This document shows positions 2,927 through 6,067 of a stretch of DNA of 14,607 bases, in pieces. The position numbers were made by a program, and so were the translations under genes. Each line of letters starts with the position of its first letter. The first letter of the stretch is position 1. The notes beneath the pieces are model-generated. The model was not told the DNA's origin. It did no database searches and was given only the letters and a program-made list of their open reading frames with translations. The stretch is from Promethearchaeota archaeon (GTDB lineage Archaea > Asgardarchaeota > Lokiarchaeia > Sigyniarchaeales > SOKP01): the NCBI GenBank assembly GCA_011364975.1, contig RDOE01000082.1, positions 1 to 14,607 of the forward strand, written 5' to 3'.

Positions 2927-3790
2927 TCATTGATTTCTCCTAATTTCTTCAGCCATCTTAACTGTTTCTGATAACTTTTTATCTACATCATGAGTGCGGA
3001 CAATATGGGCCCCATTATATATAGCTATTGCTGTAGCAGCGAGAGATCCATTTAGTCTTTTTTCAGGTTCTGGAATATTTAAGGTCGTTCCAATAAAAGA
3101 TTTTCTCGAAATTGCAACCAGTACAGGTTTGTGTAATGAACGTAATTTCTGTAAATTCCCTATAATTTTTAAATCATATATATGGGTTTTTTCTTCAATC
3201 CAATGACCAATTCCTGGGTCTAATATTATTTTATTTATATCATATCCTCCCTTCTTTAATATATTAATAGTTTTTTTGAATTCTTTAACAATTTCTTCAA
3301 TGGTGCATAAATCTCCAGGTATTAATTTTGATGCCATTAAAATAATAGGTAAATCTTTATCTATTATAAAGTCTATTAAAGATGGATCGGTTTTGAGGCA
3401 ACTCACATCATTTACCATAATATTTCTGTTATACTTCATAGCAATATCGTGATTTTTTTCAGCAACTTTTGCATATTGGGTATCCACGGAGATTGTAATA
3501 TTTTTAGGTATTATCTTGCATATAAGTTCCATAGCAGGAATGATTCGTTTTAATTCATCCTCGATGGTTATCTTTTTAGACCATGGTGCAGTCGATCTGG
3601 CCCCTAAATCTAGTATCCTAGCCCCATTTTCAATCATAGTTAAGGTGGCATTCTGTAATGAATTTAAGTCCTCATATACAGAGCCCTTATAAAAAGATTC
3701 GGGACTTAGGTTGAGTACTCCCATTATTATTGTAGGAAAATTATCCCCTATTTCTAAAGAATCATAGTACTTTGCATAGATTTTATCCAT
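2927..3790 (-). CDS. folP: Dihydropteroate synthase family (pterin-binding TIM barrel), 287 aa
   Basis: IMGVLNLSPESF, LDLGARSTAP, ISVDT, MVNDVS, IILDPGIG, ISRKSFIG, IVRTHDV: pterin-binding Asn/Asp/Lys/Arg residues of FolP are retained. Confidence 0.9.
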   Translation of the reverse strand: MDKIYAKYYDSLEIGDNFPTIIMGVLNLSPESFYKGSVYEDLNSLQNATLTMIENGARILDLGARSTAPWSKKITIEDELKRIIPAMELICKIIPKNITISVDTQYAKVAEKNHDIAMKYNRNIMVNDVSCLKTDPSLIDFIIDKDLPIILMASKLIPGDLCTIEEIVKEFKKTINILKKGGYDINKIILDPGIGHWIEEKTHIYDLKIIGNLQKLRSLHKPVLVAISRKSFIGTTLNIPEPEKRLNGSLAATAIAIYNGAHIVRTHDVDKKLSETVKMAEEIRRNQ

Positions 3791-3846: not shown

Positions 3847-4641
3847 ATGCAGTTGTTTTCATTAAAACTCCCCTTAATAAGAGAAAATGATCCGTTATTA
3901 GATATTATTATAACTCATCTTAAACAAGAAGATGAGACTCTAAAAGAAGGGGATATAGTGGTAATTGCTGAAAAGGTAATTGCTACCGCTCAGGGAAGGG
4001 TTATTGATCTTAATACGATAACAAACATCTCAAAAGAAGCAAAAAAGTTAGCAAAGAACTACGATATGGATGAAAGATATGTCCAATTAATATTAAAGGA
4101 ATCTTCTATGATACTAGGTGGAATGACACATGTAATCTTAGCAAAAGTACATGATTTTCTTATCGCTAATGCAGGTATTGATCAATCTAATGCGGGTCCT
4201 AATAAAGTTGTCCTTTTACCAGACAATTTAAAAAAGGTCGCGTGGGAATACCGAGATATACTGAAAGGTGAATTTAATCTGAATAATTTGGGAGTAATAA
4301 TCGCTGACTCAAGAGTTCAACCATTGAGAAAGGGCACAATAGGAATTGCAATCGCAACTGCTGGATTCGAACCAATTGAGGATTTACGAGGAAATCCTGA
4401 TTTATTTAATCGCCCCATGCAAATTACCATGAGAGCAGTTGCTGATGATTTAGCTAGCGCCGCACAATTTTTATTGAATGAAACTGATCAGCGTACTCCT
4501 GTAGTGATAATAAGAGGCGCTAATTTAGAATTTACAAATACACCATTAAGTACTCCAGAAATGGCTCCAGAAGAATGTCTTTATATGAACATTTTTTCAA
4601 AATATTTACTTACCAAAACTTCGAGAGACAAGGAGGATTAA
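3847..4641 (+). CDS. cofE: CofE-family gamma-glutamyl ligase (F420-0:L-glutamate ligase or folate/pterin glutamyl ligase), 264 aa
   Basis: LPLIRENDPL, GDIVVIAEKVIATAQGR, ANAGIDQSN, GVIIADS, DLRGNPDLFNR, AVADDLASAA, PVVIIRG are characteristic CofE motifs. Confidence 0.88.
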   Translation: MQLFSLKLPLIRENDPLLDIIITHLKQEDETLKEGDIVVIAEKVIATAQGRVIDLNTITNISKEAKKLAKNYDMDERYVQLILKESSMILGGMTHVILAKVHDFLIANAGIDQSNAGPNKVVLLPDNLKKVAWEYRDILKGEFNLNNLGVIIADSRVQPLRKGTIGIAIATAGFEPIEDLRGNPDLFNRPMQITMRAVADDLASAAQFLLNETDQRTPVVIIRGANLEFTNTPLSTPEMAPEECLYMNIFSKYLLTKTSRDKED

Positions 4642-4695: not shown

Positions 4696-4716
4696 TAAGA
4701 AGGTTTATATATATAA
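4696..4716 (+). promoter_or_regulatory. Putative archaeal promoter (purine-rich BRE + TATA box) for the acidic microprotein
   Basis: TAAGAAGG-TTTATATATATAA about 80-90 nt upstream of ATG 4794; an SD-like GAGAGAGGT follows at 4775-4783. Confidence 0.5.
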
Positions 4717-4793
4717 TAATGTTCTTTTTATACTTAGATTATAATAAAATCACAGATTAAATTTAATCAAATAAGAGAGAGGTTTGATAATTG

Positions 4794-4931
4794 ATGAATT
4801 CAGATAATAATCATTATAATCGAGATGATGATGAGTGGGAAGACGACTATGATGACAATGATGAAGAATGGGAAGACGATGATGAAGAATGGGACGATAA
4901 GGATGATGAAGATTTAGAATATATCAATTAA
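4794..4931 (+). CDS. Unannotated 45-aa hyper-acidic, Trp-repeat microprotein: MNSDNNHYNRDDDEWEDDYDDNDEEWEDDDEEWDDKDDEDLEYIN
   Basis: Below the ORF-track length cut-off. ATG 4794 (in-frame TTG at 4791) to TAA 4929-4931; SD-like GAGAGAGGT upstream; markedly more G-rich than flanking intergenic DNA; 26/45 residues are D/E; repeat units differ partly at synonymous positions. Confidence 0.75.
   Translation: MNSDNNHYNRDDDEWEDDYDDNDEEWEDDDEEWDDKDDEDLEYIN
4827..4901 (+). repeat. Three imperfect 21-nt (7-codon) repeat units within the microprotein
   Basis: GATGATGAGTGGGAAGACGAC (4827-4847), GATGAAGAATGGGAAGACGAT (4860-4880), GATGAAGAATGGGACGATAAG (4881-4901). Confidence 0.85.
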
Positions 4932-5056
4932 AAACGTTAGAGTATTCGATTATATAATATCACACTAATTGAATTTTTTATCAAAATATTTTTTATTAAA
5001 AAATTTTAAAGCGTCCCCTTTTGTAATATGAGACGAAATAATTATCCCTCTTATAT

Positions 5057-6067
5057 TTAGATAATCTTTAATTTTTGAAATAATGCGGATACGAGTATTG
5101 GAAGAGCTATGGTTGCATCACACCATACACTAACGTATTTTGACTCTAATGAATATTTTCCCCATGATTTAGACTCTGAAATCGTACATCCGGAGAGTCC
5201 ACCATCATATTCTGTTGCTGTATGGATACGAACAGAATAATTATATCCAATGGTTTCCATATCTTCAATTTGATCTAGTAATGGAAAAATTTGTTGAGCC
5301 CAATTTCTAGGAACACCTCCTCCAACTATTAATGTACCATATTCCTCATAACTTTTAATAATTTCTGCAAATTTTAATACATCTCTAAAAATGTCAAGCT
5401 TAAAGGAATATCCCTCCCTTACTGAAAATTTAATCAAGTCTAAAGCTAATTCTGAATCTGAAAATGCAGGTATAAATATAGGAACTTTATATTTCGCCGC
5501 TATGGATATTATACTTCTAGTATGAATATTTTCTCCCAATATCCTCAAAAATTCTGAAGGAGCTAGATCAATCGTTTTTTCTTTAAATACATTCTTAATT
5601 ATTTTCAATAACTCATTTTCAGCTTTCTTATAATTCTCTTCCGGCAAAAATACATCATAAATTCGATTTATTCTATGCTGAAACAATTCATTATCATCTA
5701 CGTTAGGTGAGCCCATATAATGACCTACATTTGAAAAAACATCAACGATATCATGAATAATATTTGCTCCCGTAGAAACTATAACATCAATTAATTTGTG
5801 TTCTATTAGAGCACAGATTAAATCCCCCATACCAGCGGGAACCATTGCTCCTGATAAGGTTAATACAGTTAAAATCTTTTCTGAACTTACCATTGTATAA
5901 AGTACATCGAGAGCTTTTCCTAAATTTCTTCCTTGAAATCCACAATTCTTTAAGGAATTGAGTAGATCCTCTATGGTTTTCACTTTGTATACATTAAAAG
6001 GTGTTATTTTTTTAAATAAAAAATGATCTTGTTGTTTATTACTCATAATAGGTATATTATATTCCAA
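5057..6067 (-). CDS. Deoxyhypusine synthase family protein (DHS or DHS-like homospermidine synthase); true start may be ATG at 6046
   Basis: GFQGRNLG, LSGAMVPAGMG, IVSTGANIIHD, INRIYDV, PIFIPAFSDSE, GGGVPRN, DGGLSGCTISESKSWGK (active-site Lys), CDATIALP. A TTTAAAA box on the minus strand at 6071-6077 sits about 25-30 nt upstream of ATG 6046, favouring a leaderless start there over TTG 6067. Confidence 0.9.
   Translation of the reverse strand: MEYNIPIMSNKQQDHFLFKKITPFNVYKVKTIEDLLNSLKNCGFQGRNLGKALDVLYTMVSSEKILTVLTLSGAMVPAGMGDLICALIEHKLIDVIVSTGANIIHDIVDVFSNVGHYMGSPNVDDNELFQHRINRIYDVFLPEENYKKAENELLKIIKNVFKEKTIDLAPSEFLRILGENIHTRSIISIAAKYKVPIFIPAFSDSELALDLIKFSVREGYSFKLDIFRDVLKFAEIIKSYEEYGTLIVGGGVPRNWAQQIFPLLDQIEDMETIGYNYSVRIHTATEYDGGLSGCTISESKSWGKYSLESKYVSVWCDATIALPILVSALFQKLKII

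What the first reader, a model, noticed from the sequence alone, without database searches (positions are those of the whole stretch)
4794..4931. Hidden 45-aa microprotein made of three WASP/N-WASP-like acidic-Trp ('A') motifs in a probable Asgard archaeon
Seen: a stand-alone small ORF with BRE/TATA-like and SD signals encoding MNSDNNHYNRDDDEWEDDYDDNDEEWEDDDEEWDDKDDEDLEYIN (17 D, 9 E, 3 W), with units DDDEWED, DEEWED and DDEEWDD and synonymous variation between units, suggesting selection on the peptide. Established: the C-termini of N-WASP (DDDEWED) and WASP (DDEWDD) are the acidic A motifs that bind Arp2/3; related acidic-Trp motifs occur in cortactin and fungal myosin-I, and W-acidic motifs bind kinesin light-chain TPR domains; Asgard archaea encode actins and actin regulators. 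Inference: this may be a multivalent, disordered short-linear-motif ligand for an actin/Arp-like or TPR partner. No WH2 or C segment is visible, so it would be an adaptor or inhibitor rather than a full nucleation factor. Alternatives: a nucleic-acid mimic or histone/ribosomal protein chaperone, or a cation-binding peptide. Low-complexity convergence is a real possibility.
Basis: partly seen in the sequence, partly recalled or inferred. Interest (0 to 1): 0.85.

Follow-up and report, generated by a model that had tools for sequence, protein, structure and literature searches.

The report
Hidden archaeal acidic-tryptophan microprotein gene

Summary
The ORF (window 4794-4931, +) is exactly as described: 45 aa with 17 D, 9 E and 3 W. 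It is not chance. The genome holds three such small ORFs and four composition-matched random genomes held none. In 13 of 41 relatives of the genus an orthologue sits in the same place, convergent with deoxyhypusine synthase, with its own Shine-Dalgarno-like signal and two conserved Trp positions.

A DNA pattern for two acidic-Trp motifs, with a reversed control that hit no genome, shows the class is archaeal rather than Asgard-specific:
- 112 of 400 genomes in the window's phylum;
- 74 of 151 in the Acidianus phylum;
- 63 of 81 in the Thermococcus phylum;
- 1 of 151 (the centre genome only) in a bacterial phylum.

Pfam, NCBIfam, PDB and billion-protein searches find nothing, so it is unannotated.

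The WASP/Arp2/3 reading is not supported: no WH2 or C segment, no Arp2/3 subunit found, and the class is commonest outside the Asgard phylum. The only functional leads are recurrent neighbours: ABCE1 in TACK archaea, NIP7 in Thermococcales and DHS here. My best guess, at low confidence, is a disordered polyanionic peptide acting on the translation machinery.

The parts
4794..4931 (+). Coding sequence of the 45-aa acidic-Trp microprotein (ATG 4794, TAA 4929-4931). I call this the type A, DHS-convergent copy.
   Evidence: Orthologues occupy the same position in 13 relatives. W15 and W26 are at least 90% conserved across 34 family members. Main contigs from runs of four studies show no difference inside 4794-4931.
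4779..4783 (+). Shine-Dalgarno-like GAGGT core within GAGAGAGGT (4775-4783), 10 nt upstream of the ATG.
   Evidence: Read. The orthologues listed mostly carry GGAGG, AGAGG or AGGTT-like purine blocks upstream of the start. Function is inferred.
4730..4749 (+). Conserved ATACTTAG box (4730-4737) followed by an A/T-rich TATA-like stretch (4738-4749); candidate promoter.
   Evidence: the ATACTTAG box is shared with 6 orthologues (L005, L034, L009, L006, L036, L037). A second subclade shares a TTATAATTG box and an AATCTCAATAAAAATAAAA leader. Promoter function is inferred and no transcript data were found.
4854..4910 (+). 21-nt (7-codon) in-frame tandem repeat covering motif units 2 and 3.
   Evidence: period 21, 2.7 copies, 83% matches, score 79.
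4974..4994 (+). Two T-runs (4974-4979 and 4989-4994) between the convergent microprotein gene and DHS; candidate archaeal terminators.
   Evidence: Read. T-runs lie downstream of the orthologues as well. Function is inferred.
5057..6067 (-). Deoxyhypusine synthase gene, the conserved convergent neighbour.
   Evidence: Pfam DS, 1.3e-90. Its 3' end lies 55-181 nt from the microprotein stop in 13 relatives and in this genome.
3847..4641 (+). cofE (F420-0:gamma-glutamyl ligase), the upstream same-strand neighbour. It is a less constant neighbour than DHS.
   Evidence: Pfam F420_ligase, 2.3e-63. In G014 and G015 the microprotein lies about 1.6 kb from cofE but still abuts DHS.

Best explanation
Window 4794-4931 is a real, expressed-as-protein, unannotated gene. 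It belongs to a widespread archaeal class of tiny (about 22-70 aa), intrinsically disordered microproteins. The class is built from a short, often Lys-rich head, a body of Asp/Glu runs punctuated every 3-10 residues by Trp (less often Phe, Tyr, Leu or Ile), and an aromatic or hydrophobic C-terminal end.

Shown: the gene, its conservation, its paralogues, its phyletic spread and its recurrent neighbours.

Inferred: the peptide acts in trans as a polyanionic, multivalent acidic-aromatic ligand of the translation apparatus (ribosome recycling, ribosome biogenesis or factor modification). It would dock its aromatic anchors and acidic runs on basic or hydrophobic surfaces, in the manner of the ribosomal P-stalk C-terminal tail or the eIF3j N-terminus on ABCE1.

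My odds: real gene about 0.85; member of the pan-archaeal class, by homology or by convergent design, about 0.7; translation-related trans-acting ligand about 0.3. The confidence figure given for this explanation (0.3) is for the whole statement, mechanism included.
For: Gene reality:
- 3 such ORFs in the genome against 0 in each of 4 random genomes.
- Syntenic orthologues convergent with DHS in 13 of 41 relatives of the genus.
- At least one acidic-Trp micro-ORF in 20 of 41 relatives when synteny and pattern hits are combined.
- SD-like elements, conserved upstream boxes and downstream T-runs.
- W15 and W26 at least 90% conserved in 34 sequences.
- Inside the acidic cores of 34 Asgard-phylum ORFs, 180 of 231 non-acidic residues are W, Y, F, L or I, and 111 are W. 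The ORFs were chosen for having at least one motif, which inflates W.
- Every pattern hit I inspected in the genus is a 46-67 aa stand-alone ORF.
- No differences inside the ORF in main contigs from four studies, while both flanks vary.

Class and spread, by the double-motif pattern:
- 112 of 400 genomes and 36 of 85 genera in the window's phylum.
- 74 of 151 in the Acidianus phylum sample.
- 63 of 81 in the Thermococcus phylum sample.
- 1 of 151, the centre genome only, in a bacterial phylum sample.
- The reversed control hit no genome in any of the four samples.
- Inspected loci were stand-alone ORFs of under 70 aa in 17 of 30 (window's phylum), 15 of 15 and 14 of 14.

Translation-related context:
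- The micro-ORF lies upstream of ABCE1 on the same strand in 10 of 15 pattern-selected loci. ABCE1 is also present in 9 loci from the collection-wide scan, and for 17 of these 19 loci the script placed the ABCE1 start 52-498 nt downstream.
- Starting from ABCE1 instead, 12 of 30 loci in the Acidianus phylum sample have it.
- In Thermococcales it directly precedes or overlaps a NIP7/UPF0113 PUA gene in 7 of 14 loci.
- Here it abuts DHS, the aIF5A-modifying enzyme.

Precedents: the aP1 stalk C-terminal peptide binds NBD1 of archaeal ABCE1 through hydrophobic residues (PMC6125642, abstract and passages). The eIF3j N-terminus contacts ABCE1 near nucleotide-binding site I (PMC7780240, abstract and passages).
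Against: - No transcript, ribosome-profiling or peptide evidence was obtained.
- The ABCE1 linkage is absent where it matters. 0 of 30 ABCE1 loci in the window's phylum have an upstream acidic ORF. In this genome ABCE1 is preceded by a divergent gene. None of the 67 Asgard-phylum microprotein loci searched contains ABCE1 or NIP7.
- The DHS relation is convergent, not operonic, and is confined to one genus.
- The two paralogues in this genome sit in unrelated contexts.
- Common descent of the Asp-rich Asgard copies and the Glu-rich TACK and Thermococcales copies cannot be shown. HMMER-based searches return nothing for such low-complexity sequence, so similar design could be convergent.
- Close orthologue pairs differ too little for a dN/dS test: 0 synonymous against 4 non-synonymous, and 1 against 3.
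- Alternative frames of a GAW-rich stretch are also open, so an open frame alone proves little.
- About half the genomes of the genus show no copy with the methods used.
Confidence: 0.3

Rival explanations
1. General polyanion. The peptide would be a nucleic-acid mimic, a chaperone or decoy for basic proteins (histones, ribosomal proteins, OB-fold ssDNA binders), or a buffer for cations or polyamines, with no specific link to ABCE1 or translation factors.
For: - The composition is 58% D+E with regularly spaced aromatics.
- In one Asgard genus the same acidic-Trp tail is fused to the C-terminus of PCNA (6 of 30 loci), and in one locus to a small Zn-ribbon protein.
- The genes beside the window copy, DHS and a pyruvoyl arginine decarboxylase, both concern polyamines.
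- Contexts of the paralogues are heterogeneous.
Against: - Trp specifically, not just any aromatic, dominates (111 of 231 core residues), and two Trp positions are conserved. That argues for defined pockets rather than bulk charge.
- The TACK and Thermococcales copies have specific recurrent neighbours.
- The class also occurs in an Acidianus genome, a lineage I recall as lacking histones, which was not tested here. If so, histones cannot be the universal partner.
Confidence: 0.25
2. Cis-acting sensor ORF. Translating an N-terminal run of acidic residues destabilises the ribosome, and the act of translating the ORF, rather than its product, would regulate a neighbouring gene. In TACK archaea that gene would be ABCE1.
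For: - Consecutive acidic residues near the N-terminus of a nascent chain stochastically abort translation (abstracts of PMC9718836 and PMC12673854).
- The TACK copies are 22-64 aa, begin almost at once with poly-Glu, have their own GGAGGTG-type signal and lie 52-498 nt upstream of the ribosome-splitting ATPase gene.
Against: - At the window locus no same-strand gene follows. The next gene, DHS, is convergent.
- The window protein has 10 non-acidic residues before the acidic run and a conserved hydrophobic C-terminal end. Conserved Trp positions and C-termini suggest a functional peptide.
- Nothing here tests ribosome destabilisation in archaea.
Confidence: 0.15
3. One reading: a multivalent WASP/N-WASP-like acidic 'A' motif peptide that binds an Arp2/3-like or actin-family partner (or a TPR domain) in an Asgard archaeon.
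For:
- The genome encodes three actin-family proteins and a weak profilin-like protein.
Against: - No WH2 or C region, and 0 Pfam families.
- ARPC4 not found. P34-Arc not found either, but the control genomes were silent too.
- The class is more frequent outside the Asgard phylum: 63 of 81 and 74 of 151 against 112 of 400.
- No cytoskeletal gene lies beside any copy examined.
- One review of actin-network evolution lists profilin and gelsolin homologues for Asgard archaea; the 7 passages I read name no nucleation-promoting factor (PMC12050087).
Confidence: 0.03
4. An archaeal homologue of eukaryotic DSS1/Sem1, the small acidic Trp-containing subunit of the proteasome lid, BRCA2 and TREX-2 complexes.
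For: Similar size, acidity, disorder and Trp-in-acidic-patch design. This comparison is recalled and not computed.
Against: - The Pfam DSS1_SEM1 model finds nothing in the genome at E<=10, and hmmscan of 7 family members finds no family.
- PCI-model hits in the genome are unspecific, since the model rings in all 14 control genomes.
- No paper in the library holds both 'Asgard' and 'DSS1'.
Confidence: 0.05
5. Not a functional gene: an open frame created by expansion of a purine-rich GAW/TGG repeat and maintained by chance or for a DNA- or RNA-level reason.
For: - A 21-nt tandem repeat lies inside the ORF.
- Other frames of such sequence are open too, for example the 30-aa frame at 4825-4917.
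- The copy in G001 (L029) has no canonical start codon.
- About half the genomes of the genus show no copy with the methods used.
Against: - Conserved position, strand, start context and stop across species whose cofE proteins are only 70-78% identical.
- None in random genomes and none with the reversed pattern.
- Trp (TGG) cannot arise from GAT or GAA by a single change, yet its positions are conserved or replaced by other hydrophobic residues.
- No Rfam family above noise.
Confidence: 0.07

Closest known systems
Ribosomal P-stalk C-terminal tail (archaeal aP1)
   Same: An acidic, flexible segment ending in a few hydrophobic or aromatic residues that dock on translation factors. The aP1 C-terminal peptide binds NBD1 of archaeal ABCE1 (PMC6125642). 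ABCE1 is the gene the TACK micro-ORFs precede.
   Different: aP1 is a folded ribosomal protein with an N-terminal dimerisation domain, and its tail uses Leu and Phe in a helix. The microprotein has no folded domain, uses repeated Trp, matched no Pfam family, and is not linked to ABCE1 in the window's phylum.
eIF3j/Hcr1 N-terminal region
   Same: A eukaryotic translation factor whose N-terminus contacts ABCE1 near its first nucleotide-binding site (PMC7780240). I recall, but did not verify, that this region is acidic with a conserved Trp.
   Different: eIF3j is a much larger helical-bundle dimer, and archaea have no eIF3 (recalled). No Pfam family matched the microproteins.
DSS1/Sem1
   Same: A small, disordered, very acidic protein with Trp and Phe anchors that binds several unrelated complexes (recalled).
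   Different: The DSS1_SEM1 model finds nothing here. DSS1 has two defined acidic sites and a C-terminal helix (recalled), not 3-6 evenly spaced Trp units.
WASP/N-WASP VCA 'A' motif
   Same: A short acidic stretch with one Trp. The strings DDDEWED and DDEEWDD look alike.
   Different: The A motif is the C-terminal tip of a large multi-domain protein and works together with WH2 and C elements on the Arp2/3 complex (recalled). Those elements are absent here, no Arp2/3 subunit was found, and the class is commoner outside the Asgard phylum.
Acidic leader peptides that act through intrinsic ribosome destabilisation
   Same: Short ORFs whose N-terminal acidic runs destabilise the translating ribosome (PMC9718836 and PMC12673854 abstracts). 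The TACK copies upstream of ABCE1 fit this layout.
   Different: The window copy has no downstream same-strand gene, and it has conserved Trp positions and a conserved C-terminal end.

Membership tests
WASP/N-WASP VCA region (A motif) | Acidic stretch containing a Trp | tested here: met
   Three [DE]2-3 W [DE]2 units in the 45-aa product.
WASP/N-WASP VCA region (A motif) | A motif preceded by WH2 (V) and connector (C) elements at the C-terminus of a larger protein | tested here: not met
   The protein is a stand-alone 45 aa with 10 residues before the first acidic run. 0 Pfam families at E<=10.
WASP/N-WASP VCA region (A motif) | An Arp2/3 complex present as target | tested here: inconclusive
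   ARPC4 (PF05856): 0 matches at E<=1. P34-Arc (PF04045): 0 matches, but no control genome rang, so that blank is weak. Arp2, Arp3 and ARPC1 were not separately tested; three actin-family genes exist.
WASP/N-WASP VCA region (A motif) | Trp-dependent binding to and activation of Arp2/3 | not testable with these tools
   Needs biochemistry.
DSS1/Sem1 (Pfam PF05160) | Match to the family profile | tested here: not met
   PF05160 against the six-frame genome: 0 matches at E<=10. hmmscan of 7 members found no family. HMMER's composition correction may hide weak similarity.
DSS1/Sem1 (Pfam PF05160) | PCI-domain or BRCA2-type partner | tested here: inconclusive
   PCI model hits in the genome reach at most 30.3 bits, and the model rings in all 14 prokaryotic control genomes.
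Ribosomal stalk protein P1/aP1 | Folded N-terminal dimerisation domain plus conserved C-terminal hydrophobic motif | tested here: not met
   No Pfam or NCBIfam family at E<=10. The protein is too short for the domain (direct reading).
eIF3j/Hcr1 | Match to the family profile and helical bundle | tested here: not met
   hmmscan of all Pfam-A at E<=10 returned nothing.
Archaeal acidic-Trp microproteins (class proposed here; not a curated family) | Stand-alone ORF of about 22-70 aa with its own start and SD-like signal | tested here: met
   45 aa, ATG at 4794, GAGGT 10 nt upstream. Members are 46-67 aa in the genus, 22-64 aa in the Acidianus phylum sample and 46-64 aa in Thermococcales.
Archaeal acidic-Trp microproteins (class proposed here; not a curated family) | At least two [DE]2W[DE]2 motifs spaced by 2-9 residues in a D/E-rich body | tested here: met
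   Two pattern matches in the window, at 4830-4876 and 4863-4897.
Archaeal acidic-Trp microproteins (class proposed here; not a curated family) | Common descent with the TACK and Thermococcales copies | tested here: inconclusive
   The head-body-tail layout is shared. PKKK-type heads occur in Asgard, TACK and Thermococcales copies, but the window copy has only a single Arg. No sequence search can score such low-complexity peptides.
Archaeal acidic-Trp microproteins (class proposed here; not a curated family) | Linkage to ABCE1 (TACK) or NIP7 (Thermococcales) | tested here: not met
   0 of 30 ABCE1 loci in the window's phylum. The own ABCE1 locus has none. No ABCE1 or NIP7 in the 67 Asgard-phylum loci searched.

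The most novel reading that the evidence does not exclude
A never-annotated, pan-archaeal family of acidic-Trp microproteins is a trans-acting accessory of ribosome recycling and biogenesis. Its genomic partners would be ABCE1 in TACK archaea and NIP7 in Thermococcales. It would be the archaeal counterpart, or forerunner, of the acidic-Trp modules that eukaryotes use on the same machinery (eIF3j N-terminus, P-stalk-type tails, perhaps DSS1). The Asgard copies, including this one beside DHS, would be expanded and diversified paralogues.
Probability: 0.15. Interest if true: 0.85.

Novelty: new variant of a known kind. Interest (0 to 1): 0.66.

Why it matters
If the gene is real, as the evidence suggests, a protein class present in a quarter to three quarters of the genomes sampled in three archaeal phyla has escaped gene callers, Pfam, NCBIfam and, as far as my searches reach, the literature. 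The sampled genomes include complete single-contig Thermococcales genomes. That matters for annotation practice, because short low-complexity ORFs are discarded and HMMER-type tools cannot see them.

The recurrent placement upstream of ABCE1 and NIP7 offers a concrete, testable entry point into unexplored regulation of archaeal ribosome recycling and biogenesis. These tests can be done in genetically tractable Thermococcus and Sulfolobus species.

It also corrects an attractive but misleading 'eukaryote-like actin nucleation' reading. Acidic-Trp motifs are an old and general archaeal device, so finding them in an Asgard genome says nothing about Arp2/3-type regulation.

Tried and rejected
- Protein-based searches are blind to this family. 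The genome search with the window protein found no relative in 40 genomes, and the alignment profile recovered only 6 of 41 relatives and missed known members. The search for homologous proteins gave 3 candidates and 0 hits for the window ORF, and 1 metagenomic hit for a Thermococcales copy. The search of protein representatives with the 34-sequence profile gave 0 of 1.84 billion at E<=0.001. PDB profile and single-sequence searches gave 0. NCBIfam gave 0. The exact look-up found 0 of 10 sequences. The protein atlas gave only 'hypothetical protein' clusters at 0.80 or below, which is not evidence. These blanks show lack of annotation and lack of sensitivity, not absence.
- Expression: no RNA holder was listed for the stretch. 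This says nothing about expression.
- Complex prediction: a Bathyarchaeota micro-ORF product with its adjacent ABCE1, each given as an alignment (A3, A4). The result was no verdict, score 0.00 in both runs, and the controls were not run. It is no evidence for or against binding. The window's own protein was not folded with any partner.
- I did not predict a monomer structure, because a 58% D/E peptide gives an uninformative model.
- dN/dS: the close pairs differ at only 4 codons each, so I abandoned the test.
- Neighbourhoods of the two paralogues in this genome gave no shared theme. A proteasome-activating-nucleotidase-like AAA gene lies about 2.7 kb from the C164 paralogue. Several type A orthologues end in phi-Tyr-Ser, which recalls the HbYX proteasome-docking motif (recalled). 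The window copy ends LEYIN, so I did not pursue this.
- I considered LIR-like WxxL, EEY/F-like and SSB-tip-like endings from memory. None is consistent across the family.
- Rfam: one hit at 12.9 bits against a gathering score of 38, E=0.96, treated as noise.
- Literature. 'Asgard' with 'DSS1': 0 papers. 'archaea' with 'small acidic protein' and 'tryptophan': 0. Four peptide strings: 0. 'ABCE1' with 'upstream open reading frame' and 'archaea': 35 papers, of which I saw the listing and abstract openings of 8, and none concerned an archaeal leader ORF. The broad search listed nothing relevant among its 15 rows.
Full report
OBSERVATION. A/T-rich TATA-like stretches lie at 4704-4719 and 4738-4749, and T-runs follow the stop. 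It sits between cofE (3847-4641, +) and a convergent deoxyhypusine synthase gene (5057-6067, -). Around these lie gyrB, a pterin-binding enzyme, a pyruvoyl arginine decarboxylase, AspRS, GatA and GatB. Motif units 2 and 3 fall in a 21-nt in-frame tandem repeat of 2.7 copies at 83% matches, so the three units are partly a recent duplication.

IS IT MORE THAN CHANCE? The assembly has 3.74 Mb in 200 contigs at 30.6% G+C. Among its 62,403 stop-to-stop segments of 25 aa or more, only three small ones reach 68% D/E over 25 residues, and all three carry at least two [DE]2W[DE]2 motifs. They are the window ORF, a 48-aa open frame on contig C164 and a 66-aa ORF on C119. Nine larger acidic proteins have no such motif. 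Four third-order Markov genomes of the same size produced none.

CONSERVATION IN THE GENUS. Protein searches failed, so I used synteny. I fetched the cofE locus from 29 relatives, and 10 of those loci carry a small acidic-Trp ORF just downstream. Longer stretches and a profile search added G014, G015, G051 and G045. In 13 relatives and in this genome the ORF's stop lies 55-181 nt from the 3' end of a convergent DHS gene. In G016, DHS is about 0.9 kb away. Where a gene separates the ORF from cofE (G014, G015), the ORF stays beside DHS, so DHS is the anchor.

Seven relatives have a second DHS paralogue in that position and no ORF, and in one DHS abuts cofE. The copy in G001 lacks a canonical start codon. 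The orthologues are 33-51% identical to the window protein. They keep SD-like purine blocks, often GGAGG, before the start, conserved upstream boxes and downstream T-runs. They end in hydrophobic or aromatic residues such as LEYIN, LNFYS, LGYYS, LELYS, FEDF and DYDI.

A DNA pattern encoding two [DE]2W[DE]2 motifs 2-9 residues apart hit 17 of 42 genomes of the genus, and its reversed control hit none. All the hits I inspected were stand-alone ORFs of 46-67 aa, which fall into three paralogue types. Combining synteny and pattern, 20 of 41 relatives show at least one copy. In a 34-sequence alignment, W15 and W26 of the window protein are at least 90% conserved. Main contigs from runs of four studies show no difference inside the ORF, while both flanks vary. 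That is consistent with constraint, but the numbers are small.

SPREAD. The same pattern gave these counts:
- 112 of 400 genomes in the window's phylum (36 of 85 genera; 52 of 134 in its own family);
- 74 of 151 in the phylum holding an Acidianus genome;
- 63 of 81 in the phylum holding a Thermococcus genome;
- 1 of 151 in the phylum holding an Anaerostipes genome, and that one is the centre genome chosen because it has a hit.
The centres of the Acidianus and Thermococcus samples were also chosen by a hit, so without them the counts are 73 of 150 and 62 of 80. The reversed control hit no genome in any sample.

In the window's phylum, 17 of the 30 loci I inspected are stand-alone ORFs of 25-67 aa, many with a GPKK-type basic head. 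Six are a C-terminal tail on PCNA in one genus, and the rest are tails or internal segments of other proteins. In the Acidianus phylum sample, all 15 inspected loci are ORFs of 22-64 aa, most ending in Trp. In Thermococcales, all 14 are a clearly orthologous 46-64 aa protein of the form MQPPKKKKK-VEEFEEE...-EEW.

Of the 79 with an in-frame hit, 23 are small ORFs, mostly archaeal, and 56 are tails, heads or internal segments of larger, mostly bacterial, proteins.

WHAT ORGANISM? No tool named it. Three Actin-family hits (292, 215 and 175 bits), two Snf7 hits and a weak profilin-like hit fit an Asgard archaeon. The low G+C would suit a Lokiarchaeia-type lineage, but that is my inference.

ANNOTATION STATUS. 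Nothing was found in Pfam (7 members, E<=10), NCBIfam, PDB, the 5.8-billion-protein word search, the 1.84-billion-protein HMMER search or the exact look-up (0 of 10). My literature searches also found nothing. Supplements were closed, so small-protein catalogues there could hold members I could not see.

FUNCTIONAL LEADS. In the Acidianus phylum sample, 10 of 15 pattern-selected loci have the micro-ORF directly upstream of one conserved gene on the same strand. That gene is ABCE1, identified by Fer4_RLI plus two ABC domains. Nine loci from the collection-wide scan, including Thermoprotei, Bathyarchaeia and Acidianus records, also contain ABCE1. For 17 of these 19 loci a script placed the ABCE1 start 52-498 nt downstream of the micro-ORF, which often has its own GGAGGTG-type signal. 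Starting from ABCE1 rather than from the motif, 12 of 30 loci have such an ORF within 900 nt upstream, or 11 of 29 without the centre genome.

In Thermococcales, 7 of 14 loci have the gene directly before, and slightly overlapping, a NIP7/UPF0113 pre-PUA/PUA gene, with a pterin-binding enzyme gene upstream. Four of the 14 lie upstream of moeA.

In the window's phylum, however, 0 of 30 ABCE1 loci from 18 families have an upstream acidic ORF. This genome's ABCE1 is preceded by a divergent gene. None of the 67 Asgard-phylum microprotein loci searched contains ABCE1 or NIP7. The two paralogues here sit in unrelated contexts: a MobA-like NTP transferase and a methyltransferase/ATP-grasp fusion for one, cyclophilin and a HEAT-repeat protein for the other.

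The neighbours ABCE1, NIP7 and DHS all concern translation. That is a theme, not a proof, and for the window copy it rests on a convergent neighbour in one genus.

MECHANISM. Peptide ligands of ABCE1 have precedents. [quoted passage not shown] The eIF3j N-terminus contacts ABCE1 near nucleotide-binding site I (PMC7780240, abstract and passages). I therefore rank first a trans-acting, disordered, polyanionic peptide with Trp anchors that acts on the translation machinery (about 0.3).

The rivals, with my odds:
- a general polyanion, meaning a nucleic-acid mimic, a chaperone or a polyamine/cation buffer (0.25). The PCNA fusions and the polyamine-related neighbours favour this.
- a cis-acting ORF that exploits ribosome destabilisation by acidic nascent chains (0.15). 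This rests on the abstracts of PMC9718836 and PMC12673854. It fits the ABCE1-upstream copies but not the window copy, which has no same-strand gene after it.
- a non-functional repeat-derived frame (0.07);
- a DSS1/Sem1 homologue (0.05). The PF05160 model finds nothing.
- the WASP/Arp2/3 reading (0.03).

The motif resemblance is real, but the defining context is missing. There is no WH2 or C element and ARPC4 is not found. P34-Arc is not found either, although the control genomes were silent for that model too. No cytoskeletal gene is a neighbour of any copy examined. The class is most frequent in the Thermococcus and Acidianus phylum samples. The resemblance is best explained as a general acidic-aromatic design.

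VERDICT. The Asgard/actin interpretation is not supported, and function remains open with a translation-related lead. The novelty lies in the breadth of the hidden class and its ABCE1 and NIP7 linkage outside the window's phylum, not in the window copy itself.

Noticed in passing
L102-L105, L108, L111 (one genus, g49, of the window's phylum); e.g. L103:649-1554:+: A PCNA homologue (PCNA_N 3.4e-15) of about 290-300 aa carries a C-terminal acidic-Trp tail (...GYLLAPMQP...DEDWDEDEDEDEDWDEDEE). This is the same module as the microproteins, fused to the sliding clamp.
   Followed up: partly
L020, L022, L023, L026, L027, L030, L031 (relatives of the genus): Seven relatives have two DHS genes in tandem next to cofE, one about 77-82% and one about 59-61% identical to the window's DHS. 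These genomes lack the microprotein at that position. This genome has a second, distant DHS-like gene on C127 (34% identity).
   Followed up: no
G000 contig C127:21557-22249 (+): A 230-aa frame begins with an acidic, Phe-rich stretch (EEEDDFEEEFEEEEEESDAEYEE) followed by IENVVATV. From memory that looks like a TATA-binding-protein repeat, which would mean a TBP with an acidic N-terminal extension. I did not test it with Pfam.
   Followed up: no
G000 contig C142:30093-31175 (-): The best actin-family match in the genome (292 bits) contains one in-frame TAG. This could be a sequencing error, a split gene or something else.
   Followed up: no
L029 (genome G001), reverse strand, downstream of cofE: The syntenic microprotein frame (...NIEIKDEEEEDIWEDLDEDDEENDDDDDDFEDF) has no ATG, GTG or TTG start, and its upstream region differs from its closest relative L024. 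It may be a pseudogene or use a non-canonical start.
   Followed up: partly
L158, L182, L196, L197 (Micrococcoides, Yaniella, Rothia records): Actinobacterial proteins of about 117-136 aa end in Pro-rich linkers followed by (D)nW repeats (...WDDDDWDDDDWDDDWDDDD). This looks like a bacterial C-terminal-tail version of the motif on an unidentified protein family.
   Followed up: no
L304, L305, L307-L311 (Thermococcales); window 2927-3790: A pterin-binding enzyme gene lies just upstream of the Thermococcales microprotein gene, and a Pterin_bind gene also lies two genes from the window's copy. This may be coincidence.
   Followed up: no
window 4825-4917 (+), other frame: A 30-aa Met/Lys-rich frame (MMMSGKTTMM...) overlaps the ORF. 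Any GAT/GAA-rich stretch produces such a frame, which shows that open frames alone are weak evidence here.
   Followed up: yes
The genome search, second matches in most genomes of the genus; G000 C200:11266-11979: Each genome has a second cofE-like domain (36-42% identity) inside a 470-490 aa frame, so presumably a fused form.
   Followed up: no
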